Below are positions 15,735-43,775 of a DNA stretch of 64,000 bases, piece by piece (position 1 is the stretch's first letter; each line of letters starts with the position of its first letter). The stretch lies in IMG/VR virus record IMGVR_UViG_3300047323_000545; one strand, 5' to 3'. The translations under genes and the position numbers were made by a program. The notes below the pieces were generated by a model. It was not told where the DNA came from. It saw only the letters and a program-made list of their open reading frames with translations, and did no database searches. The DNA comes from a virus.

Positions 15735-15764
15735 ACGCTAACCGCCGGTCCAGGTCGAGAGCAA
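15735..15764 (-). promoter_or_regulatory. Housekeeping-sigma (HrdB-type) promoter TTGCTC-N18-TAGCGT
   Basis: Intergenic, upstream of the loader/helicase/primase run. Confidence 0.5.
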
Positions 15765-15773
15765 GAAACTGCT

Positions 15774-28458: not shown

Positions 28459-30072
28459 TCAGGGCGTGGTGTTGTTGGTCAGCAGGCCCAGTCCGGCCAG
28501 CGCGGAGATCAGGTTGCGCAGCGCGAGGTTGCCGCCGTCGGAGCCGGTCACGGTCGGCTTGACGGTGCCCTCCGCGCCGAAGAAGCCCAGCCGACTGGTG
28601 GCGTCCGTGCCGATGTTGACCGTCGTGAGGGCGTACAGCTTGTTCACGATGACGACTGCGTTGAACGGGTAGTCGGGGTTGCCGAACGTGGTCTGCTGGG
28701 CCGCGCTGGTCTTGGAGGCGTCGCCGATGGCCGAGGAGCCGTTGTGGGTGGCGGCCACGACGGTGTTGGCGCCCAGGGCCAGCGCGGCGGGAGCCAGGGC
28801 CTGGGCGTTCTTGCCGATCGCCACGGCGTTGGTGGCGCCGGGGCCGACGTAGGCGGTGGTACCGATGGCGCTACCGGCGGAGCCGTACGCCTTGGCCTGG
28901 CGGCCGATCGCCGTGCCGTCGGTGGAGTCGACGTAAGCGTCCGCGCCGACGGCCGTCCAGCCAGTGCTGGCCAGCGACCCGGTGGCGCGCGCGCCCACGG
29001 CGACCGCGTTCTGAGAGACCGCCTTGGCAGTGGGGCCCACCGCAACGGTGTCTACGGCCGTGGCGTTCGAGCCATTACCAAAGGCCGTGGCGTTGGCGTA
29101 CCACGCCTGTGCCCAGGTGCCGACGGCGATGGAGTTCAGGCCTGAGGAGGTCGCGTTCGCACCCAGTGCTATCGACCCGGTGCCGGACCCGGAGTGGGTG
29201 TGCGCGGGGACCGTGCCGCCGTACATGATCTGCAGGCCGGTCATCCATGCCTCATGGCCGGTGCCCGCGACGAAGGTGGCCGCGCCCTTGAACTCGACGG
29301 AGACGGACTGGTAGGTGCCAGCGGCCAGCGGGTAGCGGTAGAAGCCCCACGGCCGGGTCTGGGTGATCGTCTCCAGCACGGTCTTCGTGCCGCCCTGCGT
29401 GGTGGCCGCGATGATGACGCTTTCACCGGTGGCCAGGCTCGGCCGTACCCACAGCGAGACGAAGCCCGCCTCGGCGAGGGTGAAGCCCGGCGCGAGGGCG
29501 ACGAGGTCGGCCGCGTTGCCGGTGTGCCTGGCGTGCAGGGACCGGGTGAGACCCCAGTCGGTGGGCGCCTCGGCCGGGTAGTCGCGGGTGCTGGTCGCGG
29601 CCTGCGTGAACGACCAGCCTGCCGGGTCACGGGCGAGTGCGAAGTCCTCGTGGATGACGGTGACCCTCGGCGTGACGCCGGAGTTGGCCGGGACCGGCCC
29701 CCACACGGCCTGGCCCGGGGTGTCACCGGCCAGCAGCACGTTGCCGGGCACCTGCTCGCCGACGATGAGCAGCGGGCTGTCGGTGCGGGCGGTTTCCTCC
29801 GGCGGCGGCGGCCCGTCGAGGTAGACCAGGATGTCGGAGAAGCCGTCCTTCTGGACCAGGACCGACACACGCTGCGGCTCGTCCATCCAGAAGTCGATCA
29901 CGCCGTTGGCGGTGACGAACGGATTCGTCAGCTGATCGTTGCCGGTGGGCCCCGCGTACAGCGGCTGGGCCACCTTCACCGACTGCCCGGACTCACGCAC
30001 GGTGACCTGCGCGCCGTACAGCAGGTCGCCTGTCTCGCCGGTGATCGGCCGCATCACGTGTGCTCGCGCCAC
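28459..30072 (-). CDS. Tail fibre protein with ~12 YadA-like 14-residue repeats (paralog 2)
   Basis: SIALG, SIAVG, ATAFG, TVAVG, AVAVG... periodicity; GAGGAGG RBS before GTG 30072. Confidence 0.7.
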   Translation of the reverse strand: MARAHVMRPITGETGDLLYGAQVTVRESGQSVKVAQPLYAGPTGNDQLTNPFVTANGVIDFWMDEPQRVSVLVQKDGFSDILVYLDGPPPPEETARTDSPLLIVGEQVPGNVLLAGDTPGQAVWGPVPANSGVTPRVTVIHEDFALARDPAGWSFTQAATSTRDYPAEAPTDWGLTRSLHARHTGNAADLVALAPGFTLAEAGFVSLWVRPSLATGESVIIAATTQGGTKTVLETITQTRPWGFYRYPLAAGTYQSVSVEFKGAATFVAGTGHEAWMTGLQIMYGGTVPAHTHSGSGTGSIALGANATSSGLNSIAVGTWAQAWYANATAFGNGSNATAVDTVAVGPTAKAVSQNAVAVGARATGSLASTGWTAVGADAYVDSTDGTAIGRQAKAYGSAGSAIGTTAYVGPGATNAVAIGKNAQALAPAALALGANTVVAATHNGSSAIGDASKTSAAQQTTFGNPDYPFNAVVIVNKLYALTTVNIGTDATSRLGFFGAEGTVKPTVTGSDGGNLALRNLISALAGLGLLTNNTTP

Positions 30073-30085
30073 TTCGCCTCCCTCG

Positions 30086-30119
30086 TCACCCCTTCGGTCA
30101 CCAGGGAGGCGTGGCACAG
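30086..30119 (-). promoter_or_regulatory. Putative late promoter CTGT-N21-AAGGGGTGA
   Basis: Exact consensus, upstream of a separate RBS. Confidence 0.65.
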
Positions 30120-30128
30120 CAACCGGCG

Positions 30129-30950
30129 TCAGCCTCCGCCGGGGTCACCCGGCAGCGGGTCCCCGCCATCGCCCGAGCTTTCACCCGTGCCCTCGTCCGG
30201 CTCCGGCGGCGGCACGTAGGTCGGCAGCTTCTGGGTGTACAGCAGCCCCTCGTTCGTGACGCCGAGCATGAAGGTGCTGCCGTTGGGGCTCTGCAGCGCG
30301 ATCCCGCCAGGGAAGAAGGCGGTGTCGGCCGCCGTACCGATGACGACCTGGTGGGGCCGGTCGGTCTGGGCGCCCGCTCCGATCGCGACAGAGCGGTTGA
30401 ACATCGCCCGCGCCGCGTCGCCGAGGGCCGTGGACTGGGAGCCCTGAGCCAGCGCCGACTGCCCGACGGCCACGGCCCCGGGCGCCGTGGCGTCCGACTG
30501 GGAGCCTGCGGCCAGGGCGCCGATGTCGGAGGCCGTCGCCTGCTCGCCCAGGGCCACGGTGGAGTCGGCGATGGCCTGGGTGCCCTGGCCGAGGGCGGTG
30601 GCGTGCACGCCGGTGGCGCTCGCGCCGACACCGATCTGGAGGGACTGGGCTCCGGAGCCGGGGTGGGTGGAGTCGGAGTTGACGGCGGTCACATCGACGT
30701 TGTCCCAGAACTCCTCCGGGTCCGCACCGACCTGGACGCCGATGCGCACGCGGTCCGGGGCGTCGAGGTAGAAGTCCACCTCGCCGGTCGTGACCGTCCA
30801 CGGGTTGGTGTAGGTCGTGCCGCCGGTGGCCTGGGCGTAGATGGTCTGGCCGTAGAAGGTCGTGGTGCCGGGGACCAGGAGCCGCACCGTGGCGGTGGGC
30901 ACCTGGTTGCCCTGCAGATCGAGCAGGGCGCGGTTGAAGTGCGCGCGCAC
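30129..30950 (-). CDS. Tail fibre protein with YadA-like repeats (paralog 1)
   Basis: ATALG, TVALG, AVAVG, STALG, SVAIG repeats. Confidence 0.7.
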   Translation of the reverse strand: MRAHFNRALLDLQGNQVPTATVRLLVPGTTTFYGQTIYAQATGGTTYTNPWTVTTGEVDFYLDAPDRVRIGVQVGADPEEFWDNVDVTAVNSDSTHPGSGAQSLQIGVGASATGVHATALGQGTQAIADSTVALGEQATASDIGALAAGSQSDATAPGAVAVGQSALAQGSQSTALGDAARAMFNRSVAIGAGAQTDRPHQVVIGTAADTAFFPGGIALQSPNGSTFMLGVTNEGLLYTQKLPTYVPPPEPDEGTGESSGDGGDPLPGDPGGG

Positions 30951-30959: not shown

Positions 30960-33900
30960 TTAGCGGTTGAGGACGAAGGCGTCGGTGAGGATGTGGCGAG
31001 CCAGCGCGGGCGGAGCGCCCTCGTTGGTGCCCTCGGCCACCGCGTCGGGCAGGGTGATCGTGGGCAGCGGGTCGGTCTTCGGGGCGTTCTGCTGCATCCA
31101 CTGGCGGAACGCGAGCCACCAGTCCTCGGGGATGGGGCTGGTCCAGCCCTGGAACAGCGGGTCGGAGTCCACCGGCGGGTAGTAGTCGGCCAGGGAGCTG
31201 GCGGCCCCGGCGGCCTGCAGGGTGTCCTGGTAGGGCACCGCGCCGCTCAGCGTGGCGTACCAGGGCCGCAGGATGACCGAGGACAGCGACAGGTTGGAGG
31301 CGTAGCCGGTGGCCCTCCAGCGCAGCTGCGTGCCGCCGGAGCGGTCGGTGTTGGGCAGGTCCGGGAACTGGAAGACGCCGCGCGGGTTGTTCTTGATGTC
31401 GATCATCTCGTACCAGTTCACGCCGCCGTCGCGGGAGATCTCCCAGATGATCGGGTCGTTGAAGACCGCCAGCGAGTCGACGTGCCACACGCCGGTGCCC
31501 GCGCTGCCCTCCTGGATGACCCGGACGCGGACGTCGTGGACGTCGTCCACGTCCCAGTCCTGGGCGACGTCGCCCCACATGCCGAGGGTCTCCATCTCCG
31601 ACCACTTGCGGGTGCCATGGACCGACACGGCGTCCCAGGTGAGCGGGTTGGGCGGGCTGGTGTCGACGGTGGCACCCACGTACCACTCGCCGATCTGCGC
31701 CGAGTCGAAGCTGTGCGAGGCCGACGCGATGATCCGGCCGTCGCCGTTGACCAGCTGCAGCAGTAGCGGCGCGGCCAGCGGGCCGTCGGTGTAGACGCGT
31801 GCCGCCGCATACAGACGGCCGCGCGGCGCCGGGGTCACCGGCCGCAGCGACTCGATGCCGCCGAAGTCGGCCTCAGAGGTGGCGTTCTCGATCTCCCACC
31901 ACAGCGGCCGGTTCGGCAGCGGGTCGGAGTCCTCGATGTCACCCCAGGTCGCGAAGCGGGACTCCAGCGAGCCCCAGGAGGACGCCGAGTGGCCGCGAGC
32001 GACCCTGGCCATGCGGCCGATCGTGGAGGCGAACTCGTTCGAGGACTCCGCCGTGGCGTCGCCGACCGGCCGCCAGAAGTGCAGGCTCGGGTCGTCGAAG
32101 TCCGGGTCGGCGACCAGCTGCTGAGGCTGGGACGTCTGCGCGGCGAACTGCACCGCCAGCACGCGCCGCTTGGACACGAACGTCTTGGAGACCGTCTGCG
32201 CACCGTCGGACGGCGGCTGCTCGGTGGTGACCATCGCAGTGCCGGTGTGCTTCCAGCCACCCTGCTGGGACGCGTCGTAGCCGGACAGGTAGGCCGTGTC
32301 ATGGAACAGCTCGACGTACTGCTCGGTGTCCCGCTGCGCGACCGGGTCGGCCAGGTAGGCCAGCACCTGGCTGATCGCCACGGTGTAACCCACCTTCGTG
32401 TCCATGGCCATCTGCACCACGTGGTAGCGGTGCACGCCCGTGCTGGTGAAGCGCGGCGCCTGAGTGCCCGGCAGCGGCATGTACGGGAACCGCTGCCCGG
32501 AGCGGCGCAGCTGCTGGGCCGCGAGCGGGTCCGGCGCGTACAGGGCCTCCGTGGCCAGGTACGGGCTGCTGTTGGCCGTGGAGGACACGATCCGGTTGGC
32601 GTCCACGTACTGGTAGACCGCGCCCTGCTCGGTGGCGACCCGGGCGCCCGCCGGGGCTGCACCGGAGACCTGCGTGCCGGAGGCGACGATGCTGGAGCCC
32701 TGCCCGGTGTCGGCCGGGAACAGCCTGGTCTCCACCAGAGGGCTGGCCTGGGATGGCGTGAGCACCATCGGCTGCAGGTTGGTGAACTCCATCTTGAGGT
32801 GCCGGGCCTTGATCGGCCGGAACTTCATCAGCCCCTTGCGCAGGACGAAGTCCCCGGGGACCGGCGTCCACACCAGGTCGTCCAGGGCGACCGGCGGCCC
32901 GCCGATCAGCCCCCACGGGCACACCGAGTCCTCCCCGGCCGTGATCAGGCTGGGGTCCATGCGCAGGATCGCACTGGCGCTGGTGTGCGCGAGGGCGTCC
33001 TTCCCGTAGCCGGGGCCGAGGGCGTAGGAGGCCGGGTCGTCCCAGTACGCCTCGACGGTGTCGACGTCGGCGGCCCGGCCGAGCGCGAGGAAGAGGTTGC
33101 GCAGCCGGATCGAGCCGCCCGGACCGGACAGCGGGCCGCCGAGCCGAACCACGGTCGGGGGCGCCTGGTCAACGACGTGGGCTGCCTCCTGGATCCGGGT
33201 CAGCCACGGGGTGCGCACAGTCAAGGTCGACCCGTCGTAGGCAACTGCCAGCGGGATGCGCTCGTTGACCCCGAACGTGACTGAGTCCATCTCCACCGTG
33301 CGGTCGCCCAGGCGGACCTTGACCGACCCGGACTCGATCCAGACGGTCAGGGCCGGGGTGTCCAGGACGGTGAACTTTCCGGTGTCGCCAGAGGTGAACT
33401 GGGGGTAGACCACCATGCCCAGCAGGAAAGGCTGAGCCGGGTCGAACTGGAGCGCCCGGTTGTCCACGTCCAGGTAGGAGTTGACCGAGTCAAACAGCAC
33501 GCCCTCGCTGTCAACGGCCGGGGTGTCCGTACTTGCCCGGACAAGAGGCGAGGTCAGAGGGGTGTCGCACGGCTCGAACCGCTCGGGCACCACCGTGGCG
33601 TCGGTGTAGTACAGGTTGCACGAAACCCCGGACGTGACCGGGTCAAGGTACAGCCGGTCGATAACTTGAGCGCTGCCGTCCGAGGTCCGCAGGTCCAGGT
33701 ACAGGCTTGCCACGGCGTTCGGGACCGGCTGCGGCGCGCACCGCCACACGCCGGACGCGGGCGGCACCAGGTTGTCTGCCCGGTTGCGCCGGAGCAGGTA
33801 GTCAACCTGGGAGCCGAGCAGGTCGGTTGACCCGGCGATCGGCACCGTGTGCTCGGCATCCTGCTGCGGCAGCCACGGCAGGTCAGTCAAGCTGGAGGCA

Positions 33901-35141
33901 CGGTACGAGACAAGCGCGTCCTTGACTCCCAGCGAGTACGACACCGGCTGGTTGTCCGAGCCGCGCGGGTACGCCGACGACGGCAGGCGGGTCATGATGA
34001 TCCTGAACCGGCTCGCGGAGACCGGCTGGACGTCGACCTCCTGCGCCATCCAGTGCCCGGCTCCGAAGTGCTGCGGGTGCAGCTTGAGGTTGTCCGGGAC
34101 ACCCGCAGGGATGACTGCCGGGACCGAGTCCAGGATGCTGATCTGGACCGGGCCGCCCAGGCGCGCGTTCTGCAGCGGCTTCCACAGCCCGTCGGCGTCG
34201 CGGTACTGCACCCAGGCCCGCTGGGGGAACCGGGCCAGGGAGAACGAGATGCGGTTGACCGGCCGGGCCGTGGCCAGAGAGAACTCGAAGACGTCCCGTG
34301 TCGGGTCACCGTTATTGCGCGGCGGGCTTGACCAGAACCGCTCCGTGTTGCCTGCCGCCTGCCGCTGGGTTGACAGGCGCAGCGCGTCCTTGAGCGAGTC
34401 AAGGGGCATGCCGTCTACAGTCAAGGGAGCCAGCGCCGGGATCCCGAAGTCACCCGACGCCGACCCTGTGCCGGTCACGGGCTGGGCAACCCGGCCCTTC
34501 CATGCCGAGCCGACGGCCTTGCCCGGCACATCCAGGCCGTTGAGCGCCGTCTGGATCGCGGTCATGTAGGCGTAGAAGTCGGACGTGCGCGCCCCGCTGT
34601 CCCGCCCGACCCGGGTGAAGTCCTCGAAGAAGGACTGCCGCTGCGCCAGCGACAGCTCCATCTGCACGCCCATGAGCCGGGCGTCCTTGTTGGTGATGTT
34701 CGCCGGGTCGCTGCCGTTCAGCTCGTCGCTGCCAGGCGCAACCGTGAACCCTGCCTGCTCCAGGGCCGCCTTGATCCGCTCACCGGTCTCCGTGTCCAGG
34801 CCACCGACGAAGGTGACCGGGTCGCTTCCAGCGGCGCCGTGCCAGGAGATGACGTAGTCGGCGGCGGCCACCAGGTCCAGGGCCTGCGGCTCGTCGAAGT
34901 TCGTCGAGGTGATGTGCAGGTTGCTGTTCCCCGAGGACAGCATGCCGTCGAAGGAGTAGAACCGGCTGGCCGACCCGGCCAGGTAGTCCGCGATCTCCGT
35001 GGTACCCGGCTCGATGCCACCGCCGTGGATGGCGATGTGCGCCAGCCGGGAGCCGGGCGGCGTACGGACCAGAATGCGGTAGTCCACACCGATCTGGCGC
35101 GCGGCTGCCAGCGCGGCATAGTTGGCGTACAGATCGGCCAC
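30960..35141 (-). CDS. Large tail/baseplate protein with N-terminal poly-gamma-glutamate hydrolase (PghP-like) domain and beta-sandwich modules
   Basis: HGGGIEPGT, LHITSTNFDEP, ISWHG, NITN, GVQMELS in the first ~195 aa; LamG/CBM-like regions downstream. Confidence 0.75.
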   Translation of the reverse strand: MADLYANYAALAAARQIGVDYRILVRTPPGSRLAHIAIHGGGIEPGTTEIADYLAGSASRFYSFDGMLSSGNSNLHITSTNFDEPQALDLVAAADYVISWHGAAGSDPVTFVGGLDTETGERIKAALEQAGFTVAPGSDELNGSDPANITNKDARLMGVQMELSLAQRQSFFEDFTRVGRDSGARTSDFYAYMTAIQTALNGLDVPGKAVGSAWKGRVAQPVTGTGSASGDFGIPALAPLTVDGMPLDSLKDALRLSTQRQAAGNTERFWSSPPRNNGDPTRDVFEFSLATARPVNRISFSLARFPQRAWVQYRDADGLWKPLQNARLGGPVQISILDSVPAVIPAGVPDNLKLHPQHFGAGHWMAQEVDVQPVSASRFRIIMTRLPSSAYPRGSDNQPVSYSLGVKDALVSYRASSLTDLPWLPQQDAEHTVPIAGSTDLLGSQVDYLLRRNRADNLVPPASGVWRCAPQPVPNAVASLYLDLRTSDGSAQVIDRLYLDPVTSGVSCNLYYTDATVVPERFEPCDTPLTSPLVRASTDTPAVDSEGVLFDSVNSYLDVDNRALQFDPAQPFLLGMVVYPQFTSGDTGKFTVLDTPALTVWIESGSVKVRLGDRTVEMDSVTFGVNERIPLAVAYDGSTLTVRTPWLTRIQEAAHVVDQAPPTVVRLGGPLSGPGGSIRLRNLFLALGRAADVDTVEAYWDDPASYALGPGYGKDALAHTSASAILRMDPSLITAGEDSVCPWGLIGGPPVALDDLVWTPVPGDFVLRKGLMKFRPIKARHLKMEFTNLQPMVLTPSQASPLVETRLFPADTGQGSSIVASGTQVSGAAPAGARVATEQGAVYQYVDANRIVSSTANSSPYLATEALYAPDPLAAQQLRRSGQRFPYMPLPGTQAPRFTSTGVHRYHVVQMAMDTKVGYTVAISQVLAYLADPVAQRDTEQYVELFHDTAYLSGYDASQQGGWKHTGTAMVTTEQPPSDGAQTVSKTFVSKRRVLAVQFAAQTSQPQQLVADPDFDDPSLHFWRPVGDATAESSNEFASTIGRMARVARGHSASSWGSLESRFATWGDIEDSDPLPNRPLWWEIENATSEADFGGIESLRPVTPAPRGRLYAAARVYTDGPLAAPLLLQLVNGDGRIIASASHSFDSAQIGEWYVGATVDTSPPNPLTWDAVSVHGTRKWSEMETLGMWGDVAQDWDVDDVHDVRVRVIQEGSAGTGVWHVDSLAVFNDPIIWEISRDGGVNWYEMIDIKNNPRGVFQFPDLPNTDRSGGTQLRWRATGYASNLSLSSVILRPWYATLSGAVPYQDTLQAAGAASSLADYYPPVDSDPLFQGWTSPIPEDWWLAFRQWMQQNAPKTDPLPTITLPDAVAEGTNEGAPPALARHILTDAFVLNR

Positions 35142-35158
35142 TGGTGGTCCTCCTCAGC

Positions 35159-35195: not shown

Positions 35196-36530
35196 TCAGT
35201 CGGTCGTCAGGACGGTGCGGCGGTCACCGGAGTACGGGTTGGCGATGAGCACACCGTCACCCCCGGCACGCGCGGCGTGGCTCAGCAACGGGTCAAGCGC
35301 ACCGAGGGAGGCACGGTAGACAGTCAAGGTGCCATCCCTCCAAACAACCGTCTGGTCATCCGAGGCAAGGTCGGCGTCCGGCACCGCTCCAGGCGCGGTG
35401 AAGTCGGCCGGGTCGTCCGGACTGACCGCGTAGGAGCGACAGGTCGGGACCTGCTGGCCGTACGACCACTCGTCCCCGAGCCGGGTGGTCAGCGGCGGCC
35501 GGGGCAGCACCCGGGCCGAACCCGGATCCACCCCGTCCTGCTGCTGGATCGCCGACAGCGGGTAGGGGTTCGTGCTGGTCGGCACCTGACTCGGGGTGAC
35601 CTGCGGGACGATCTCCCAGTTCTCACTGTCTGAGCGCACCCCGGCAATACCGCGCGCCACCAGAGCCGAAGTGCCCTGCGTATCGACCGTGAGAAGCATG
35701 TGAGCAGGCTTGATCCGCTCAAGAACACGCACCAGCGCCGACTCGTCGCTGGCCTGCTGCGCCCGGCCCTCCGGGGTCGTCGGGTAGTCGCGGTTGACCC
35801 GGACCAGGACCTCGGAACGGGTCAGGGAACCCGAGCGGCCGTAGAACGGCGTGCCCTCCAGAGCGCCCCAGATCTCACCCTCGTAGTCGCTCCAGTGACC
35901 GGCCTCCATCCAGGCCCAAGTGTGCGCGACCTCGTCCGCGTCCCCGGCGGCATCGAGCAGCGCCCAGGACTCGTAGACGTCGACCTCGACTCCGGTGATG
36001 GCCTCGGCCGCCGCCTGCAGGCCCGGCACGGTGCCGCCCGTCGCGACGGCCTTGGCCAGCGCGGTCATCCGGTCCCGGAAGGACGCGTCGGCAGCCTCGA
36101 TCGAGTCCCACTCGGCAGCCGTGGCGGTCGCCGTCTCCATCGGGTTGATCGGCAGGACCTCGGCATCGTTCCTGGTGGCGTTGAAGATCGCCCCATAGAA
36201 CCGGTCGAGATCGAAAAACCTTGCCCCCGAGACGGACAGGCTCTGCAACTGGGCCACCAGCAGCCGCTTGCGGAGCTGGCCGACACCAGAGTCCCCGAGG
36301 AGCGCCTGCATCAGGCGGACCAAGTGCGAGGTGGGCCGGAGGTCGTAGACCTCCTCAGGGAAGTGACGCAGCTGCTCGGCGACGGCCGTGTCGGCCACGA
36401 GCATGCCGGTGCCGCTGGCCAGCGCGGTGGACTGCGGCACGGTGACGTCGGCCTGCAGCGGAATCAGGCCGCCCGGGATGACGGCGGTCCCGAAAGTGCC
36501 GCTGCCCTGGTGGAGGAAGTCGTCTGCCAT
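35196..36530 (-). CDS. Baseplate wedge protein (P2 gpI-like position)
   Basis: Follows baseplate J; GGTVPGLQAAAEA and LERIKPAH motifs. Confidence 0.6.
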   Translation of the reverse strand: MADDFLHQGSGTFGTAVIPGGLIPLQADVTVPQSTALASGTGMLVADTAVAEQLRHFPEEVYDLRPTSHLVRLMQALLGDSGVGQLRKRLLVAQLQSLSVSGARFFDLDRFYGAIFNATRNDAEVLPINPMETATATAAEWDSIEAADASFRDRMTALAKAVATGGTVPGLQAAAEAITGVEVDVYESWALLDAAGDADEVAHTWAWMEAGHWSDYEGEIWGALEGTPFYGRSGSLTRSEVLVRVNRDYPTTPEGRAQQASDESALVRVLERIKPAHMLLTVDTQGTSALVARGIAGVRSDSENWEIVPQVTPSQVPTSTNPYPLSAIQQQDGVDPGSARVLPRPPLTTRLGDEWSYGQQVPTCRSYAVSPDDPADFTAPGAVPDADLASDDQTVVWRDGTLTVYRASLGALDPLLSHAARAGGDGVLIANPYSGDRRTVLTTD

Positions 36531-38380
36531 CACAGCACCCCGAAGGAGTTCCGGGCGAGGGTCTTGAAGACCACGCCGCCGAGCACGGGCAGTTCGTCGT
36601 CGCGGAAGTAGATGTCCTTGGCCCGACCGGTCGGCGCATCGACCCAAGAGGACAAAGCGGCCGAGTTCGGCGCCGAATTCGGGGCAATCTGCTGGACACC
36701 CACGATCGACGCGTTCGGATTGGCCGAGCTGTAGCCGGTCACGTCCGCGCCGTTGAGCAGGCGGCAGTTGTCCACGCCGGGCACCTGGTGGATGACCGCG
36801 AGGACGTCGCTGATCTGGACGTTGGAGTTGAAGTCCATCCGGTTCAGGTAGTCACTCAAGGCGGACCGGATGGCGTCCTGGACCGAGTCAACCGACCCGG
36901 TCGACGACACCGTGTACATCACGCCCAGCGCGAACCGCAGCCAGCGCTGCTTGGCCTGGTGGACCTTGGCGTCGATCCCGGTCAACCTCCACCGGTTCAC
37001 CGCGTCCTGCACGCTGGAGGGCACCTCGTTGTAGGTGTAGTCGCCGTTGCCACCCACGGAGACCGGCGAGCCGTCGGCAGGCAGGTAGGTGTGGTGCCAC
37101 TCCAGGCCGAACCGCGAGGTCGGCGTCCAGCCGTCCACCGTGTCCTCATGGACGACCGTGTAGGCGTACGTCACGCCGTTGGCCACCGTGCCCAGCGGGT
37201 GCGCCGTGGACGCCAGGCCGTATGTCGTCCCCGCGACCGACAGCGTGGACGGCACAGTCACGATCGGCCCGAACGGCAGCGGCACAAACACGTTGCTGGC
37301 CACCGGCCGCGTCTGATCCGACCGCAGCCACGCCCCGGTGTACAGATCCAGCGTCGAGACGGTCTGGAACACCTTGGTCTGCTTGAACACCAACGCCGTC
37401 TGCGCCGACTGCGCTCGGGTACCGCCGACGAAGAGGTCCACCCGGTTCGTGATGTTGTTCGCCGGGTCGTTCCGGCTCACCACCGGCAGATACTGGTACG
37501 ACACCGTGAGCAGCTCACCGGCCGCCGGGAAGCTCGCCGACAGCCCTGCGATCTGGGGCGGGTTCGCCGGAACCCAGGTGTAGTCGTAGTCCTTGATCAG
37601 CGGCGTGCCGTCGGACTTCGCCACCTGCACCGGCGAGGAGTAGATGTAGCGGGCGTCCGTGATCTGACAGACCGTGTTGCCGCTGACGGGCACCTGCAGG
37701 ATCTCCGACCGCGTCCGCGAGGAGCCCACGACGGACACCGCGTAGCAGTCGCCGTCGTCCAGAGCCACGCCCCGGTACATCTGCTCCGTCCCGGCCAGCG
37801 AGCGGAACACCGTCGACTTCCAGCGGGTCCGCAGCTCCGAGTCAGTCTCCCGCGACATGCCAGCGGTCAGGGCGGCCGTGTTGGTGACGGTGTTGACCCC
37901 CTGGATCGGGGAGGTGATCTGGGTAGCCATCCCGGCGCCCAGGTTGCCCTCGGGTCCGGCCGTCACGGCCTGGACCGGCACCGTGACCGAGGAGGCTCCC
38001 GGCATCAGCGTGCCGCCGACCACCGTGGTGACCACGATCGAGGAGTTCGACGAGGACGCGATCTCCGTGCCGACCGGGATGAAGACGGTCGGGGTCAGGT
38101 CGCCAGTCCGGGAGAAGGTCACCGTTCCGACCGAGCGCCGGGCCGCAATCCGCGCGATGCCGAACAGTTGGCAGAAGCTGTCGAGGTCGGCGTCGGTCTT
38201 GCTGTCGATGTCGTAGGCGTACGACAGCAGGTGGTTCTCCACGTACGCGTCCGCCAGCGACGCGGAGACCGCGTCAAGGATCTTCCGCGCCGGGGTGCCG
38301 ATGGACGTGTCCAGCTCCGGGTCGGAGACCAGCAGTGCATCCCGCATCTGCGAGACGATGTCGTCCCTGGAAACACCCAT
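36530..38380 (-). CDS. Baseplate J-like wedge protein
   Basis: DLDSFCQLFGIAR, GTVTF, IPVGT, GPEGN, ETDSELR, IHQVPGVD. Confidence 0.85.
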   Translation of the reverse strand: MGVSRDDIVSQMRDALLVSDPELDTSIGTPARKILDAVSASLADAYVENHLLSYAYDIDSKTDADLDSFCQLFGIARIAARRSVGTVTFSRTGDLTPTVFIPVGTEIASSSNSSIVVTTVVGGTLMPGASSVTVPVQAVTAGPEGNLGAGMATQITSPIQGVNTVTNTAALTAGMSRETDSELRTRWKSTVFRSLAGTEQMYRGVALDDGDCYAVSVVGSSRTRSEILQVPVSGNTVCQITDARYIYSSPVQVAKSDGTPLIKDYDYTWVPANPPQIAGLSASFPAAGELLTVSYQYLPVVSRNDPANNITNRVDLFVGGTRAQSAQTALVFKQTKVFQTVSTLDLYTGAWLRSDQTRPVASNVFVPLPFGPIVTVPSTLSVAGTTYGLASTAHPLGTVANGVTYAYTVVHEDTVDGWTPTSRFGLEWHHTYLPADGSPVSVGGNGDYTYNEVPSSVQDAVNRWRLTGIDAKVHQAKQRWLRFALGVMYTVSSTGSVDSVQDAIRSALSDYLNRMDFNSNVQISDVLAVIHQVPGVDNCRLLNGADVTGYSSANPNASIVGVQQIAPNSAPNSAALSSWVDAPTGRAKDIYFRDDELPVLGGVVFKTLARNSFGVL

Positions 38381-38439: not shown

Positions 38440-38868
38440 TCAGGTGCTCACCGTCCGCAGCACCCGGACCGTTCCGCCGGACTGCGTCTTCAGCGCGATC
38501 GTCACCTTGATCGTGTCGTACTGGATGTCCGTGCTGATGGACTGCACCGACTGCACCACGTCCTGGAAGCTGAACCGGCTCCGGGAGCCGGACAGGGCGT
38601 CGGCCGCGATCTGGGCCTGCTGGCCGTCCACGTACTGCTGCACCACCCGCACCACCTCGGCGCGCACGAGCAGCTCCAGCTCCGGCGTCAGCGGCTCACC
38701 GATGTGCGCGGCCAGCACCGACCCGAACTGCGGGTGATAGCTGTCGTGGCCGTACGGCTCGGCGAGTGCGAGTGCCAGGTCCTGTCGGATGCGGGCGGCG
38801 CCGGTGAGCGTCCGGTAGCCGCCGTCACCCAGTGCCAGGTCCCCGCCGACGAGCGCCAGCGTCTTCAT
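38440..38868 (-). CDS. gp25/W-like baseplate wedge (sheath initiator)
   Basis: GDL...IRQDL..AL.EPYG....HPQFGS.L...IG. Confidence 0.75.
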   Translation of the reverse strand: MKTLALVGGDLALGDGGYRTLTGAARIRQDLALALAEPYGHDSYHPQFGSVLAAHIGEPLTPELELLVRAEVVRVVQQYVDGQQAQIAADALSGSRSRFSFQDVVQSVQSISTDIQYDTIKVTIALKTQSGGTVRVLRTVST

Positions 38869-38984: not shown

Positions 38985-39779
38985 GTGAAGACTTCTACGC
39001 TCCCCAGGCAGCAGCTGAAGCGGCTGCTCGCCTCGCAGGAAGAGATCCGAGCGTGGATCAGTGACAACGGCTGTCTCGTCATCGGTGTCGGCATGCTCAA
39101 GGGCGGCACCGGCAAGACCACGATGACCATCTTCGTAGCCCTCTACCTGTCCTTGATCCTCGGCCTCAAGGTTCTGGTCATCGACACGGACAACAACAGC
39201 CAGAGCATCGACAACTGGTACAAGGTCCGGGAGGCCCGCCCTGGGGGGCCGGAGAAGGTCCCGTTCGACCTGGTCACCTACGACTGCAAGAACAAGGCCG
39301 AGGACGCCCCCGACCTCGACGACGTCATCGACAGCTTCCGCGAGGCATACGACGTCATCCTCGTCGACTCCGGCGGCGCTGGTAAGGAGGAGTACTGGGA
39401 GCTGTGCCAGTCGGCGCGCATGGTGCTCCTCCCGTTCGCTCCGTCCGGCTTCGAGTGGAACCGCATCGCGCCGACGGCCAAGACTGCCGCGCGGGGAGGC
39501 AAGGCCAACGACGCCCGCCTGAAGGTCTTCGTGTGCATGGTGAAGTGCACCGGCCGGAACACGCTAGCGGCCGACGCCCGGCCGGTCGTCGAGGCCATCA
39601 TGGCGACGAAAATTGACGACGACATCCGCGAGAAGATCGACATCGCCTTCGTGGACGTGGAGTTCGAGATCAGCGATGCCCCCGAGTACCCGCGCTCCTG
39701 GGACGAGACCCCGAAGCGCAACCATCTCGAAGAGATGGGCCTCTTGTTCCGCCACGCCATGAAGGAGGTCATCAGCTGA
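38985..39779 (+). CDS. parA: ParA-family partition ATPase
   Basis: Deviant Walker A KGGTGKTT, VLVIDTD, YDVILVDSG, VLLP. Confidence 0.85.
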   Translation: MKTSTLPRQQLKRLLASQEEIRAWISDNGCLVIGVGMLKGGTGKTTMTIFVALYLSLILGLKVLVIDTDNNSQSIDNWYKVREARPGGPEKVPFDLVTYDCKNKAEDAPDLDDVIDSFREAYDVILVDSGGAGKEEYWELCQSARMVLLPFAPSGFEWNRIAPTAKTAARGGKANDARLKVFVCMVKCTGRNTLAADARPVVEAIMATKIDDDIREKIDIAFVDVEFEISDAPEYPRSWDETPKRNHLEEMGLLFRHAMKEVIS

Positions 39780-40759
39780 TGCCCCGCGTTGAAGCCCCCG
39801 CCGCCAAGAAGACGGTCGCCAAGAAGCTGACCGCGCGAGAGAGGCGCATCCAGCAGGCCACCGCAGGCGCGACGACCAGCGAGGTGGCCCCTGCCCGTCG
39901 CGGCGAGCAGGACGAACCCGAGGTCGAGCTGCAGGCGCTGGAGGAGGCTGCGACTGCCGCCGTGCCCCACCAGGCCGAAACCCCGGCCATGCCTTCCAGC
40001 ACCGTCGTTACCCCGACCGCCGATCAGGTCGTCACGGCAGCCGAGGAAGGCAACCCCTTCCAGTTCATCGTGCCGCCCGAGGATGCAGACCCCCTGGAGA
40101 AGGTGGGCATCGTCCGGCGCGGGATCGCACGGGCCAACCGGGGCCTCGCCAACGGCCTCGGGAGGATGCAGAAGGACTACGTCTCGTCGGCGGGCGAGTA
40201 CCTGTGGTGGGCCACCCAGGGCGACCGCCTGAAGGACGCGGGCATCAAGTCCATCGAGAAGTTCGCCGCCCCGCTCGACCTCGGCAAGCAGGACGTCTAC
40301 CGGCTCCGCCGAGCCGTCCCGGTCTACCGGATCATCGGAGATCTGGTAGACGAGCCGCTCAACGAGCGCACCATCCGTGAGCTGTTCTCCACCATCGTGG
40401 ACGAGAAGGGCGAGATCCCTGTCACTCCCGATGGAGAGCCGGACGTCTCTCCGGAGCGCCAGAAGAACCTCCGTGAGCAGTTCACCGAGATGAAGAGGAT
40501 GGGCCGGGTCAACTCCGGCGGCGCCGTAGCGGCCCGCAGGCTCCTCCTTCTCGGCGAGGCCACTGACGTCATCGAGCCCGAGCCCAGCACGTCGGCCCCG
40601 TCCAAGGCCGTGGACCAGCTGGCGAAGGCGCGACGGACCGGGCGCATCCTCGACCTGGAGACCCTCCGCGAGGCGAACAAGGAAGACCCCGACGAGGCCA
40701 AGAGGTACGTCGAAGACATGCGGCGCAAGTACGAGGCTGCTGCTGAGATCGTCGGATAG
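39779..40759 (+). CDS. Putative centromere-binding partner of ParA (no ParB CTPase motif)
   Basis: TGATG-coupled to parA; disordered basic N-terminus; HTH-like SIEKFAAPLDLGKQDVYRLRRA. Confidence 0.55.
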   Translation: MPRVEAPAAKKTVAKKLTARERRIQQATAGATTSEVAPARRGEQDEPEVELQALEEAATAAVPHQAETPAMPSSTVVTPTADQVVTAAEEGNPFQFIVPPEDADPLEKVGIVRRGIARANRGLANGLGRMQKDYVSSAGEYLWWATQGDRLKDAGIKSIEKFAAPLDLGKQDVYRLRRAVPVYRIIGDLVDEPLNERTIRELFSTIVDEKGEIPVTPDGEPDVSPERQKNLREQFTEMKRMGRVNSGGAVAARRLLLLGEATDVIEPEPSTSAPSKAVDQLAKARRTGRILDLETLREANKEDPDEAKRYVEDMRRKYEAAAEIVG

Positions 40760-40828: not shown

Positions 40829-41065
40829 TCATGTCAGGTCGACCCAGGCGGCGAAGCTCCACACGCCGTACGTGCGGTCGACGAGCCAGGTCTGGCCGAC
40901 CATCGGCGTGATGCCGGTGCGGTGGATGGCCGTGGTGACCTCCAGTTGCTGGCCCTCGGTGTCGACACACAGGGCGAACTTCTTGTCCGTGAGGATCGAG
41001 CTGACCTTGACCTGCTTGACCGTCCAGCCGATCCCGTGGGTGGCGGCGTTCCCTGGACCCATCAT
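40829..41065 (-). CDS. Small baseplate/spike-associated protein (78 aa)
   Basis: TGATG-coupled to the hub gene; OB-like P.VGQ.WLV pattern. Confidence 0.55.
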   Translation of the reverse strand: MMGPGNAATHGIGWTVKQVKVSSILTDKKFALCVDTEGQQLEVTTAIHRTGITPMVGQTWLVDRTYGVWSFAAWVDLT

Positions 41066-43551
41066 CAGTTGCCTCCCGCCATCGGCAGACCGAGCAGCCG
41101 CTTGTCCTTGTCGCCAGTGAGCCGGGCCGGGGCCGCGAGCTGCACTGACGTCTTGAAGTAGCCGCCCTCGCCGAACTTGAAGTCGTGCTGGACCGTGGTG
41201 ACGTAGCCCTGGAAGTTGAAGGCGGGGAACTGCAGCAGCATCCCCGGCCACAGTTCCGGCATGAACGTCAGCGGGATGTTGGCCTGGTACTGGAAGGCGA
41301 ACTGCCGCATGAAGAGGAAGATCGCCGAGAACAGTGCGGCCTTCGGACCGATGAGGGCTGGCAGCTGCTGGTAGTCCGGCCGGGCACCGAACCGCTGCTT
41401 GATCCAGTCCGCGTACTCCTTCGCCTGCTTGTCTGTCTTGTCCATCCCGAACAGCGCCTTCCACACACCCGGGAAGTCGATGGTCACGATGCCGGTGGTG
41501 AAGAGAGCCGACTGGGACAGGTAGCTGTCGGAGATGGACTGCTGCACGGTCCCCGTGGCCGGGTCGAAGAGGTTCCCGCTGACCGGTGACGTCACCACGA
41601 ACTGGTGGGTGACCATGTAGTCATCCGACCAGGACACCTCGAAGTCCTGCACCTCGATGGGCTGGATGACCATCTTGGCGGCCGTGCCCCACATCCCGTA
41701 GTAGTCCGGGTACCAGGCGATCAGGTCGCCGTTCGGCGCGGAGCAAAACGACCGCATCGACGAGTTGAACAGGTTCTTCAGGTACGGCAGCAACGGCTGA
41801 TCGTTCAGCAGCGCTCGCGGCCCGGCCAGGGCCTGCGCCAGCGCGTAGTTCGGGTCGTTCTGCGCCGTCGAGATCGGCAGCCACGCGTTGTCGGCAAACA
41901 TCTTGTCGAACGGGTCCTTGGGGTTGTACCCGGGCGCGTCGGCGCCGGTGACCAGCTCGACCCCGGGGTCGCCGCTCATGTCGTTGACGCCCCCGCTGGT
42001 GCCGTCCGACCCATCGAAGATGACCGTGCCCGCGCCCGTGGTGTACGCGACGCGCGGCAGGAAGCCGCCGAAGTCCCAGTACGACGCCGCCGACGGCGGG
42101 TTGACGCCGACGTCATGCGGCTTGGCACCCGCGCGGTGCGCGCCGATCGTGCTCTTGCCGTCACCCAGGCTCATCTCCACGTGGTAGATGCCGCCCGGCG
42201 AGGAGCCCTTGAAGACCAGCGCACCAGGCGTCGCCAGGGCCTTCGCCACCGTCACCTTCTTGCACGCGCCGTACTGCGCCGCCGCCACACGGGGCAGGTC
42301 ATACAGAGACCCGAGCGCCCTCAAGTACATGGCCTGCACGAAGCTGGAGCAGTCCAGGCCGGGCGGAGGGTTCTGCGACAGCACGCCCATCTGGGTGCCG
42401 CCGTACTGCTGGGTGTACGGAATGTTCGGGTACTTCTGGCAGAAGTTCACGGAGAGCTGGGCCAGGTCGACGCCGGAGATGGTGCCCTGCGGCTTCGTCT
42501 TGGAGTCCAGCTTGCCCCCGCCCTTCTCCAGGTCCTTGACCATGGCCGTGGCGGGCTTCTCGTGCTTGGCGTACTCGTGCGGCGCGCCGGAGCGCTGGAC
42601 CGTGTCGCAGACCTTCCACAGCTCCATGTGGTCGCGGTTCGTGACCTTGAAGAGGGCGTCGTAGAACTTCCCCGCCGCGTACCGGGGGTCGGTCACCTGC
42701 TCGTGGGTGCCCCAGCCCTGGGAGGGGCGCTGCTGGAAGAGGCCCGCGCTGTCCCGGTCGCCGCCCTTGAGGTTGCGCAGGCCGGACTCCTGCATCGCCG
42801 TCATGATGGCGATGATGCAGTCACGGCTGGAGCCGCCCTTCTCCTTGCCGACGTTGTAGATGATCGCGGCGTTGGCCTTCTGGTCCGGGTTGTTGAAGCC
42901 GCCGTACGTCCCGTTCAGCGAGCTGGCGTCCGCGCCGCCCGTGCCGCCGACGGACGCGGTGCCGAGCTGATCCAGCAGGGCTCGTGCGATCTCGTCGGCG
43001 CCGGTGAGCTGGGCGTCGATCTGCTTGGCCAGGACCTCGATGACCGAGAACCAGTTGTTCGGGATGCGGGCGATGTGGGCCTTGGACTCCGGCCAGCCCA
43101 CCACCTTCTTCAGCACGGTGAGCGCGACGTTCGTCATGCCGCCGTCGGAGACACCGGTGTCCTTGTTCGCGTCCGTCAGGGCGTCGCGCACCATGGACTG
43201 CGACGCTTCGGTGTGGGAGTCCCAGTACCAGTACTGCAGCCGCTTGAGCGAGCAGGACGCGGTCAGGTGGACGACGCGCGGCCACGCCGTGACGAGCGGC
43301 ACCTTGTTCAGGTAGCCGGTGAATACCTGCACCCACTTCAGCCGCTTCATCTGCACCGAGACGCGGTCGTTCGGGGTCAGCACGCCGTCGTACTTCCGGC
43401 GGGCGTTCTGCAGGCTGAAGTTAAAGGAACTGACACCGTCCGAGCGGCGCGTCATCGAGCCCTCGACCAGGTCGTCCGAGACGTCGATGATCCCGTGCCT
43501 CTCGGTCGAGACGTAGACCTTGACGCCGGGTGCCAGGACGAAGTTCGGCAC
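41065..43551 (-). CDS. Baseplate hub protein with lysozyme-like and NlpC/P60 cell-wall hydrolase domains
   Basis: TAMQESGLRNL..GDRDSAGLFQQRPSQGWG; GLDCSSFV, LPRVAAAQY, PGALVF, HVEM; hub-like N and C termini. Confidence 0.8.
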   Translation of the reverse strand: MPNFVLAPGVKVYVSTERHGIIDVSDDLVEGSMTRRSDGVSSFNFSLQNARRKYDGVLTPNDRVSVQMKRLKWVQVFTGYLNKVPLVTAWPRVVHLTASCSLKRLQYWYWDSHTEASQSMVRDALTDANKDTGVSDGGMTNVALTVLKKVVGWPESKAHIARIPNNWFSVIEVLAKQIDAQLTGADEIARALLDQLGTASVGGTGGADASSLNGTYGGFNNPDQKANAAIIYNVGKEKGGSSRDCIIAIMTAMQESGLRNLKGGDRDSAGLFQQRPSQGWGTHEQVTDPRYAAGKFYDALFKVTNRDHMELWKVCDTVQRSGAPHEYAKHEKPATAMVKDLEKGGGKLDSKTKPQGTISGVDLAQLSVNFCQKYPNIPYTQQYGGTQMGVLSQNPPPGLDCSSFVQAMYLRALGSLYDLPRVAAAQYGACKKVTVAKALATPGALVFKGSSPGGIYHVEMSLGDGKSTIGAHRAGAKPHDVGVNPPSAASYWDFGGFLPRVAYTTGAGTVIFDGSDGTSGGVNDMSGDPGVELVTGADAPGYNPKDPFDKMFADNAWLPISTAQNDPNYALAQALAGPRALLNDQPLLPYLKNLFNSSMRSFCSAPNGDLIAWYPDYYGMWGTAAKMVIQPIEVQDFEVSWSDDYMVTHQFVVTSPVSGNLFDPATGTVQQSISDSYLSQSALFTTGIVTIDFPGVWKALFGMDKTDKQAKEYADWIKQRFGARPDYQQLPALIGPKAALFSAIFLFMRQFAFQYQANIPLTFMPELWPGMLLQFPAFNFQGYVTTVQHDFKFGEGGYFKTSVQLAAPARLTGDKDKRLLGLPMAGGN

Positions 43552-43775
43552 GAGACCACCTCCGCCCCTTGGGGCGAACCACGGACACGGCGACACGACC
43601 CCCGCTACGCTGGCCGTGCGCCTTTTGGTGTCGGCCTTTCCATCCGGCTGAGCGGCCCGCCCGTGCCGAAGTTCCTGGGGCGGGCCGCTATCCTTGTAGC
43701 AGTGGCGGTCGCCGTGGGCGGCTGCAAGTGACGCCAGGAGTCCCGGGGCAGACCGGGGGCCTGGCGTCGCGCATT

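What the first reader, a model, noticed from the sequence alone, without database searches (positions are those of the whole stretch)
34540..35141. Poly-gamma-glutamate hydrolase domain fused to the N-terminus of the largest tail protein
Seen: HGGGIEPGT, HITSTNFDEP, ISWHG and GVQMELS in the first ~195 aa of the 1393-aa virion protein. Knowledge: these match the Zn-binding His/Glu/His and catalytic Glu pattern of PghP, the stand-alone gamma-PGA hydrolase of Bacillus phages. Inference: a virion-mounted polyamide depolymerase, implying the actinomycete host presents a gamma-PGA-like barrier or receptor.
Basis: partly seen in the sequence, partly recalled or inferred. Interest (0 to 1): 0.7.

Follow-up and report, generated by a model that had tools for sequence, protein, structure and literature searches.

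The report
Phage tail protein carrying polyglutamate-cutting enzyme
A large Streptomyces virus that also lives as a plasmid has an intact zinc enzyme of the kind that cuts poly-gamma-glutamate slime attached to the front of a big tail protein, and many Streptomyces turn out to carry the genes to make that polymer, so the virus probably cuts through a host coat that has not been described for these bacteria.

Summary
Residues 1-203 of the 1393-aa minus-strand ORF (30960-35141) are a complete PghP/M86 poly-gamma-glutamate hydrolase domain. Pfam PF05908 matches at E=1.5e-59. The model superposes on PghP, PghL and the phage PM1 enzyme at TM 0.91-0.94 and RMSD 1.2-1.4 A. All zinc, catalytic and nearly all gamma-PGA-contact residues are present. 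A disordered linker (204-227) joins the domain to a conserved body of about 1165 aa built from lectin-like beta-sandwiches. The gene lies between baseplate genes and fibre genes of a ~155-kb Streptomyces myovirus-like phage-plasmid. More distant orthologs start exactly at residue 228 and lack the domain, so it is an N-terminal graft. The same graft occurs on unrelated tail proteins in other Streptomyces and Priestia elements.

New here: pgsB/pgsC/capA loci occur in 111 of 401 sampled Streptomyces species. PghP-type genes are enriched in those genomes (12/15 against 99/386, p=3e-5). About a third of the orthologs have lost essential catalytic residues.

RefSeq already names the protein by family. 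The scan has seen spike-tip PghP fusions in Staphylococcus phages and a fibre-cassette PghP gene in a Natrialba virus. Enzyme activity, virion location and gamma-PGA production by Streptomyces remain untested. I rate it a new variant of a known kind.

The parts
30960..35141 (-). Whole gene: 1393-aa PghP-domain tail protein (stop codon at 30960-30962)
   Evidence: ORF list and translation. Orthologs of 1392-1433 aa at 40-89% identity lie on 150-158-kb contigs.
35149..35155 (-). Shine-Dalgarno GAGGAGG, 7 nt upstream of the GTG start at 35141
   Evidence: Read directly from the sequence. No comparable site exists at the domain/body junction.
34533..35141 (-). N-terminal M86/PF05908 poly-gamma-glutamate hydrolase domain, residues 1-203. 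Zinc ligands are H39, E44 and H101; catalytic residues are E162, H76 and T78; gamma-PGA contacts are N72, S73, S79, N148 and R168.
   Evidence: Pfam E=1.5e-59. PDB sequence hits. Residue mapping. AF2 model pLDDT 92. Foldseek TM 0.91-0.94 and RMSD 1.2-1.4 A to 21dc, 3a9l and 5onj.
34461..34532 (-). Flexible linker, residues 204-227 (Gly/Ser/Thr/Pro/Val-rich, poorly conserved)
   Evidence: pLDDT is below 60 from about residue 204, and below 50 for 208-221. Linker identity falls to 8-40% in the most distant domain-bearing orthologs.
30963..34460 (-). Conserved tail-protein body, residues 228-1393: a chain of lectin-like beta-sandwich modules
   Evidence: phrog_2840 minor tail protein, E=1e-27. 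24-28% identity to 'minor tail proteins' of Mycobacterium, Gordonia and Rhodococcus myoviruses. Domain-less orthologs start at residue ~228. AF2 model and Foldseek hits: mycobacteriophage Douge central fibre, laminin-G/ConA-like and CBM32-like folds, all with low TM.
35196..36647 (-). Upstream neighbour: DUF7297 virion structural protein
   Evidence: PF23970 E=1.8e-33; phrog_2813.
36530..38380 (-). Baseplate J (gp6/gp47-like) wedge protein
   Evidence: PF04865 E=9e-25; phrog_6 E=8e-47.
38440..38868 (-). Small baseplate wedge protein (gp25/W-like)
   Evidence: phrog_2669 E=2e-20; phrog_43.
41065..43596 (-). 843-aa virion protein with lysozyme-like and NlpC/P60 domains, the phage's dedicated cell-wall hydrolase
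   Evidence: PF00877. phrog_2810, phrog_10030 and phrog_29272.
28459..30950 (-). Two downstream genes (30129-30950 and 28459-30117) with YadA-head repeats, probably fibres
   Evidence: PF05658, E=5e-11 and 3e-14.

Best explanation
The gene encodes a peripheral baseplate or tail protein whose first ~203 residues are a catalytically competent PghP-type (MEROPS M86) zinc gamma-glutamyl endopeptidase. A ~24-residue flexible linker tethers it to a conserved ~1165-residue body of lectin-like beta-sandwich modules. Shown: family membership, fold, an intact active site and gamma-PGA-binding groove, one continuous conserved ORF, its position in the baseplate/fibre operon, its graft-like origin, and the presence of gamma-PGA synthesis loci in the host genus. 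Inferred: when the virion lands on a Streptomyces hypha or spore coated with poly-gamma-glutamate made by CapA/PgsB/PgsC, the tethered enzyme cuts gamma-glutamyl bonds. The proposed chemistry is zinc held by H39/E44/H101, with E162 as the catalytic carboxylate and R168, N72, S73, H76, T78, S79 and N148 gripping the alpha-carboxylates. This would locally clear or grip the polymer so that the fibres and lectin-like modules can reach the wall receptor. It is the virion-mounted counterpart of the soluble, burst-released PghP of Bacillus phages. In lineages whose hosts lack gamma-PGA the catalytic site appears to decay.
For: Family and active site. The essential residues come from the literature: PghP H40, E45, H78, T80, H103 and E165, and the PghL gamma-PGA contacts (PMC6506827).

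Tail setting; start site.

Graft origin: domain-less orthologs begin at residue 228. All 12 viral loci with body identity >=53% are fused, and all 24 with <=40% have no PghP within 6 kb.

Independent grafts on other tail proteins: a 594-aa minor tail protein directly after the tape measure and Dit genes of a siphovirus-type prophage in the same host genome. Also P0045 (minor tail, E=2e-142), P0051, P0058, P0067, P0118 (tail fibre) and Priestia P0065 (tail spike).

Host substrate: PgsB (TIGR04012 equivalog, 364-392 bits against a cut-off of 222.7) in 111/401 Streptomyces species. The locus capA-sensor-pgsB-pgsC-NlpC/P60 is present in a phage-carrying host and syntenic in a second.

Association: PghP-type genes occur in 15/401 genomes, of which 12 are PgsB-positive, against 99/386 of the rest. 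Fisher p=2.6e-5, or 2.2e-4 without the two known carriers. The genes are never adjacent to pgsB.

Selection: the domain diverges more slowly than the body in intact orthologs, with a divergence ratio of 0.6-0.9 in the more distant ones. In the four reachable hosts, intact sites go with pgsB-positive genomes and substituted sites with genomes where pgsB was not found.

The phage already has a separate lysozyme/NlpC-P60 wall hydrolase.
Against: No activity, proteomic or structural data exist for this protein. No paper in the searchable library reports gamma-PGA from Streptomyces. Two of the four reachable host genomes have no pgsB hit. About 10 of 31 orthologs carry substitutions at essential residues, so catalysis is not universally required. 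The association test is not corrected for phylogeny, and the intact/pgsB match rests on only four genomes. The window's own host genome is not held. Placing an enzyme at the N-terminus of a tail protein is unusual; classical tailspikes anchor by the N-terminus.
Confidence: 0.66

Rival explanations
1. The domain mainly binds rather than cuts. It would act as a lectin-like gamma-PGA (or other polyanion) receptor-binding module, with catalysis incidental or dispensable.
For: About a third of the orthologs keep a full-length domain, 65-80% identical to this one, but have lost residues whose mutation kills PghP. T78 is replaced by G, A, D, E or M; E162 by H or Q; H76 by Y, S or R; and zinc ligands are lost in P0017 and P0018 (PMC6506827). 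These changes arose several times independently, without truncation of the domain. The body is built of lectin-like modules.
Against: The window's own protein keeps every invariant family residue. In intact orthologs the domain is more conserved than the body, as expected for an enzyme under purifying selection. Most substituted orthologs diverge faster, which fits relaxed constraint rather than a new function. The two substituted copies with a reachable host sit in genomes with no pgsB hit.
Confidence: 0.12
2. The domain is a virion-associated peptidoglycan hydrolase that cuts the gamma-D-glutamyl-LL-diaminopimelate bond of the Streptomyces wall peptide, not a capsule-type polymer.
For: The peptidoglycan stem peptide contains a gamma-glutamyl bond. 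Phage tails often carry wall hydrolases. The fold is distantly related to zinc carboxypeptidases and amidases (PMC6506827).
Against: The residues that grip successive alpha-carboxylates of gamma-PGA in the PghL complex are conserved here: N72, S73, H76, T78, S79, N148 and R168. The model matches the three gamma-PGA hydrolases at TM 0.91-0.94 but peptidoglycan amidases only at TM 0.32-0.51. The phage already carries a lysozyme-like plus NlpC/P60 protein at 41065-43596, and NlpC/P60 is the usual gamma-D-Glu-DAP endopeptidase family. Peptidoglycan is universal, so this reading does not predict the enrichment in pgsB-positive genomes.
Confidence: 0.07
3. The enzyme is not displayed on the virion. 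Either the large protein is non-structural, or the N-terminal domain is cleaved off (or separately made) and acts as a soluble enzyme released at lysis, like PghP.
For: The prototype PghP is soluble and non-structural (PMC6966330; PMC6316719). A disordered linker could be a processing site. Virion membership rests only on synteny, distant homology and fold resemblance.
Against: The fusion is kept as one frame of constant length in about 30 orthologs and 12 viral loci. There is no ribosome-binding site at the junction. The same domain is fused to at least five unrelated tail-protein families, which is hard to explain unless tethering to the tail is the point. The gene sits inside the baseplate/fibre operon.
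Confidence: 0.1

Closest known systems
PghP of Bacillus phage phiNIT1 (PDB 3a9l; MEROPS M86.001) and the phage PM1 hydrolase (PDB 21dc)
   Same: Same Pfam family. 39-46% identity over the whole ~200-residue domain. Same zinc triad, catalytic Glu and essential His and Thr. The predicted fold superposes at RMSD 1.2-1.3 A.
   Different: PghP is a stand-alone protein of about 208 aa that is not part of the virion and is released at lysis (PMC6966330). Here the domain is the N-terminus of a 1393-aa tail protein, and the host is an actinomycete, not a Bacillus. No actinophage in the 50,697-record phage collection has this domain.
PghL/YndL (PDB 5onj, gamma-PGA complex) and PghZ/YoqZ of B. subtilis prophages
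   Same: Same family and fold. Seven of the eight side chains that contact gamma-PGA in the PghL complex are conserved, including R171 (R168 here), which is implicated in stereospecificity.
   Different: PghL T168 is L165 here. PghL is a soluble prophage-encoded enzyme with no tail-protein body.
Tail or spike proteins of Twort-like Staphylococcus phages that end in a PghP-like domain (for example the 1132-aa 'glycerophosphoryl diester phosphodiesterase' of phage S2G3, PV037055.1)
   Same: A PghP-type domain fused to a large protein encoded in the tail/baseplate module, which implies a virion-mounted enzyme. The hosts (coagulase-negative staphylococci) are known gamma-PGA producers, from general knowledge (phrog_4175 profile; earlier scan notes).
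   Different: There the domain is at the extreme C-terminus of a central-spike-type protein. Here it is at the extreme N-terminus of an unrelated peripheral tail protein, in another phylum, and part of a wider set of N-terminal grafts.
Classical virion-associated depolymerases (tailspikes such as K1F endosialidase and Klebsiella capsule depolymerases)
   Same: The proposed logic is the same: an enzyme on the tail degrades or grips a surface polymer to reach the cell wall.
   Different: Those are trimeric beta-helix or beta-propeller glycanases with an N-terminal anchor. This is a monomer-type alpha/beta zinc peptidase fold at the N-terminus, and its target is a polyamide rather than a polysaccharide.

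Membership tests
PF05908 / MEROPS M86 poly-gamma-glutamate hydrolase (PghP family) | Full-length profile match above the curated threshold | tested here: met
   PF05908: 201 bits against a cut-off of 22, E=1.5e-59, profile positions 1-190 of 191. phrog_4175 E=4e-37.
PF05908 / MEROPS M86 poly-gamma-glutamate hydrolase (PghP family) | Zinc ligands His-x4-Glu plus a distal His (PghP H40, E45, H103) | tested here: met
   H39, E44 and H101 align to them and are invariant in 44 family members. Definition from PMC6506827.
PF05908 / MEROPS M86 poly-gamma-glutamate hydrolase (PghP family) | Catalytic Glu (PghP E165) and the essential His78 and Thr80 | tested here: met
   E162, H76 and T78 are present. 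About 10 of 31 orthologs lack one or more of these, but the window's protein does not.
PF05908 / MEROPS M86 poly-gamma-glutamate hydrolase (PghP family) | Side chains that contact gamma-PGA in the PghL complex (N73, S74, H77, T79, S80, N151, T168, R171) | tested here: met
   N72, S73, H76, T78, S79, N148 and R168 are conserved. T168 is L165, a position that also varies among orthologs.
PF05908 / MEROPS M86 poly-gamma-glutamate hydrolase (PghP family) | Open alpha/beta fold of PghP and PghL | tested here: met
   AF2 model pLDDT 92. Foldseek TM 0.91-0.94 normalised to target and RMSD 1.2-1.4 A to 21dc, 3a9l and 5onj; the next fold scores TM 0.40-0.46. This rests on a predicted model, not an experimental structure.
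PF05908 / MEROPS M86 poly-gamma-glutamate hydrolase (PghP family) | Zinc-dependent endo-hydrolysis of gamma-PGA | not testable with these tools
   Needs expression and an enzyme assay.
Soluble, burst-released phage PghP (deployment type of the prototype) | Stand-alone protein of about 200 aa, not a virion component | tested here: not met
   The domain is the N-terminus of a 1393-aa ORF in the baseplate/fibre operon, and the fusion is conserved in about 30 orthologs. Prototype properties from PMC6966330.
Virion-associated depolymerase / receptor-binding tail protein | Physical component of the tail | tested here: inconclusive
   Supported by synteny (gp25-like, baseplate J, DUF7297 and fibre genes), by phrog_2840 minor tail and homology to myovirus minor tail proteins, and by the fold hit to the Douge baseplate fibre (low TM). 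No proteomics or structure.
Virion-associated depolymerase / receptor-binding tail protein | Classical tailspike build: N-terminal anchor with a central trimeric beta-helix catalytic domain | tested here: not met
   The catalytic domain is N-terminal and has an alpha/beta peptidase fold. The body is a chain of beta-sandwich modules with no beta-helix.
Host gamma-PGA synthesis system (pgsBCA/capBCA) | PgsB ligase, PgsC and CapA encoded together in the host | tested here: met
   G002 locus L011: PgsB TIGR04012 at 375 bits (cut-off 222.7), CapC PF14102 at 120 bits, PGA_cap PF09587 at 219 bits, and an NlpC/P60 protein in the PgdS position. The locus is syntenic in G003. PgsC is below the NCBIfam equivalog cut-off (72.8 against 96.45). 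No pgsB hit in hosts G004 and G005. Polymer production itself is untested.

The most novel reading that the evidence does not exclude
Poly-gamma-glutamate may be a widespread but unrecognised surface or matrix polymer of Streptomyces; about a quarter of species carry capA-pgsB-pgsC-pgdS-like loci. It would act as a phage barrier or receptor. Phages of Actinomycetota and Bacillota would have repeatedly answered it by grafting an M86 zinc peptidase onto the N-terminus of diverse tail proteins, creating a general class of tail-tethered polyamide depolymerases. Catalytically dead copies would be either gamma-PGA lectins or fossils of host switches.
Probability: 0.4. Interest if true: 0.75.

Novelty: new variant of a known kind. 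Interest (0 to 1): 0.6.

Why it matters
Phage depolymerases are almost always thought of as glycanases on tailspikes. The one well-studied polyamide depolymerase, PghP, is textbook-soluble. This locus, together with the independent grafts found here, shows that the same enzyme is also deployed tethered to tails, and in a phylum where it has not been reported.

The finding also points at the host. Complete gamma-PGA synthesis loci are present in roughly a quarter of Streptomyces species and co-occur with phage-borne PghP genes. That makes 'do Streptomyces make a gamma-PGA coat, and does it gate phage infection?' directly testable with existing strains, for example Streptomyces sp. RLB1-9 and its 154-kb element. 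This bears on phage host range in antibiotic-producing actinomycetes and on soil biofilm chemistry. It also offers a natural series of active and inactive enzyme variants.

Tried and rejected
- Megablast of the gene against the phage collection found nothing.
- The window's own assembly is not held. Only an identical IMG/VR fragment (G001) was available.
- phmmer of the body against PDB sequences found nothing.
- Pfam finds no domain in the body or in domain-less orthologs.
- I considered that the ~1500-aa orthologs carry a different N-terminal enzyme. Rejected: their extra length is a C-terminal extension, and long upstream open frames are read-through of the neighbouring gene.
- I considered that PghP genes are simply part of the host pgs operon. 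Rejected: they are on other contigs or megabases away.
- All PF05908 hits together show no association with pgsB (p=0.46). Only the full-length PghP-type subset does, and a lower-scoring ~300-aa Streptomyces subfamily is if anything depleted in pgsB-positive genomes.
- The link between an intact site and a pgsB-positive host rests on four genomes and is not significant on its own.
- Fold hits of the body to binding domains of clostridial neurotoxins, laminin and neurexin reflect the generic ConA-like jelly roll and were not pursued.
- Nine literature searches found no description of tail-fused PghP or of gamma-PGA from Streptomyces. The library lacks most subscription journals, so this is weak evidence of absence.
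Full report
**What is there.**
The minus strand carries an ORF from 35141 (GTG) to 30960, 1393 aa long. A GAGGAGG Shine-Dalgarno lies 7 nt upstream of the start, and the upstream gene ends 54 nt away.

**Family membership of the N-terminal domain.**
- Pfam PF05908 (Gamma_PGA_hydro) matches residues 5-194 over the entire profile at E=1.5e-59. PHROGs gives phrog_4175.
- Against PDB sequences the domain hits the phage PM1 hydrolase (21dc, 2e-44), PghP (3a9l, 5e-34) and PghL/YndL (5e-30), end to end.
- The PghL structure paper (PMC6506827) gives the defining residues. PghP H40/E45/H103 bind zinc. Mutation of H78, T80 or E165 abolishes activity. PghL N73, S74, H77, T79, S80, N151, T168 and R171 contact the gamma-PGA hexapeptide.
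- In the window's protein these are H39, E44, H101, H76, T78, E162, N72, S73, S79, N148 and R168. Only T168 differs (L165).
- In an alignment of 44 diverse family members these same positions are the invariant or near-invariant columns.
- An AlphaFold model has pLDDT 92 for residues 1-203, followed by a disordered stretch to about 227. It superposes on 21dc, 3a9l and 5onj at TM 0.91-0.94 (normalised to target) and RMSD 1.2-1.4 A. The next fold, N-formylglutamate amidohydrolase, scores TM 0.40-0.46, and peptidoglycan amidases score TM 0.32-0.51.
- Membership in the PghP/M86 family is therefore met on every feature that can be tested in silico.

**The rest of the protein and its setting.**
- Residues 255-524 match phrog_2840, 'minor tail protein'. 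By tblastn the body is 24-28% identical to annotated minor tail proteins of large Mycobacterium, Gordonia and Rhodococcus myoviruses.
- A model of residues 228-1393 has mean pLDDT 66, with several confident domains. It is a chain of beta-sandwich modules. Its best Foldseek hit is the baseplate central fibre of mycobacteriophage Douge, followed by laminin-G/ConA-like and CBM32-like lectin folds, all with low TM-scores.
- Upstream on the same strand lie, in order: an 843-aa protein with lysozyme-like and NlpC/P60 domains, a gp25-like wedge protein, baseplate J and a DUF7297 structural protein. Downstream are two proteins with YadA-head repeats and a minor-tail-like protein.
- The only larger ORF in the window is a DNA polymerase.
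- That the protein is a tail component is thus well supported by context, but not shown directly.

**Which element this is.**
- A 96.5% identical copy of the gene lies on the 154,158-bp circular 'plasmid' pRLB1-9.1 of Streptomyces sp. RLB1-9, where RefSeq already names it 'poly-gamma-glutamate hydrolase family protein'. The papers on that strain treat the replicon simply as a plasmid.
- Orthologs at 61-89% identity sit on 150-158-kb contigs of many Streptomyces assemblies.
- A ParA cassette interrupts the baseplate operon.
- Earlier scan notes also read this genome as a Streptomyces phage-plasmid.

**The domain is a graft.**
- More distant orthologs of about 1200 aa start exactly at residue ~228, and orthologs of about 1500 aa differ only by a C-terminal extension.
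- Among 36 IMG/VR loci, all 12 with body identity of at least 53% have the domain fused in frame. All 24 with 40% identity or less have no PghP sequence within 6 kb.

**The same domain is grafted elsewhere.**
- An exhaustive search of 1.84 billion representatives found 1838 homologs. Many of the closest are proteins of 350-3000 aa with the domain at residues 1-200.
- Their bodies are minor tail, tail, tail-fibre or tail-spike families, in Streptomyces and Priestia elements.
- In the chromosome of one host that also carries this phage-plasmid, a siphovirus-type prophage has the domain at the N-terminus of the 594-aa minor tail protein that follows the tape measure and Dit genes, with an intact active site.
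- In Twort-like Staphylococcus phages the domain is at the C-terminus of a tail-module protein of about 1130 aa. The scan has noted those before, and also a fibre-cassette PghP gene in a Natrialba virus.
- In contrast, none of the 50,697 phage records from actinomycete hosts has the domain; all 227 hits are Bacillus, Staphylococcus or Listeria phages.
- The reviews and family survey I could read describe PghP only as soluble and non-structural.

**Does the host make the substrate?**
- Of the four species-representative Streptomyces genomes that carry the element, two encode PgsB above the NCBIfam equivalog cut-off.
- In one of them the locus reads capA, a Cache/HAMP sensor, pgsB, pgsC (CapC) and an NlpC/P60 protein in the position of B. 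subtilis PgdS. It is syntenic in the other host, which also has a second copy.
- Across 401 sampled Streptomyces species, 111 have PgsB above cut-off.
- PghP-type domains (E<=1e-40) occur in 15 of those genomes, and 12 of the 15 are PgsB-positive, against 99 of the other 386. Fisher p=2.6e-5, or 2.2e-4 without the two known carriers. The genes are never linked to pgsB.
- This is not corrected for phylogeny. A lower-scoring PF05908 subfamily shows no such enrichment.
- I found no paper on gamma-PGA from Streptomyces.

**Active-site decay in relatives.**
- Of 31 domain-bearing orthologs, about 10 carry substitutions at residues essential in PghP. T78 is replaced by G, A, D, E or M; E162 by H or Q; H76 by Y, S or R; and in P0017 and P0018 zinc ligands are lost. 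These arose several times independently, with the domain otherwise full length.
- In intact orthologs the domain diverges more slowly than the body (divergence ratio 0.6-0.9 in the more distant ones). In seven of the ten substituted ones it diverges faster (about 1.1-1.6), and in three it does not (0.83-0.95).
- In the four reachable hosts, the two intact copies sit in pgsB-positive genomes, and the two substituted copies sit in genomes with no pgsB hit. This is suggestive only.

**Conclusion.**
The best-supported reading (about 0.66) is a tail-tethered, active gamma-PGA hydrolase that lets the virion cut or grip a host gamma-PGA layer. The rivals are:
- a binding-only module (0.12);
- an enzyme that is not displayed on the virion (0.10);
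- a peptidoglycan gamma-D-Glu-DAP peptidase (0.07). Against this last one stand the conserved polyanion groove, the separate lysozyme/NlpC-P60 protein and the pgsB association.

The family call is already in databases. The tethered N-terminal deployment in an actinophage lineage, the host pgs loci and the active-site decay are, as far as I could find, undescribed. I therefore class it as a new variant of a known kind.

Noticed in passing
L011 (G002:C1:2138000-2156000), L012 and L013 (G003): Streptomyces chromosomes carry complete capA - Cache/HAMP sensor - pgsB - pgsC - NlpC/P60 (PgdS-position) loci. PgsB is above the equivalog cut-off in 111 of 401 sampled species. I found no literature on gamma-PGA production by Streptomyces.
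   Followed up: partly
orthologs P0003, P0006, P0008, P0009, P0015-P0018, P0020, P0029: About a third of the orthologs of this tail protein have lost residues essential for PghP catalysis (T78, E162, H76, zinc ligands), in several independent events, while keeping a full-length domain. This is either relaxed selection after a host switch or conversion to a binding module.
   Followed up: partly
window 38985-40759 (+); NZ_CP041653.1 (L030); L002: The element is deposited as a circular 154-kb 'plasmid' (pRLB1-9.1) and as separate 150-158-kb contigs in many Streptomyces assemblies. A ParA cassette on the opposite strand interrupts the baseplate operon. This fits a myovirus-type phage-plasmid that published work on the strain treats only as a plasmid.
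   Followed up: partly
L015 (G002:C1:7608000-7627900), 14463-16247 (+): A siphovirus-type prophage in the same host genome has the PghP domain at the N-terminus of the 594-aa minor tail protein that follows the tape measure (7755-13514) and Dit (13514-14461) genes. This is an independent graft onto an unrelated tail protein.
   Followed up: yes
P0046 (1178 aa, Streptomyces sp. NPDC000927): A Streptomyces protein with four matched stretches of the PF05908 domain, apparently a tandem multi-domain architecture.
   Followed up: no
Streptomyces genomes (for example G007, G010, G014): A second, lower-scoring PF05908 subfamily has open frames of about 300 aa and matches profile positions ~25-190. It is common in Streptomyces chromosomes and is depleted in pgsB-positive genomes (5/36 against 55/165, p=0.026). 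Its function is unknown.
   Followed up: no
window 41065-43596 (-): An 843-aa virion protein combines a lysozyme/endolysin-like region (residues ~216-357) with an NlpC/P60 domain (398-481) and a large phrog_2810 structural region. It is probably the tail-associated wall hydrolase or hub.
   Followed up: partly
window 28459-30950 (-): Two consecutive genes directly downstream of the PghP tail protein carry YadA-head repeats (the trimeric autotransporter adhesin motif), suggesting trimeric fibres.
   Followed up: no
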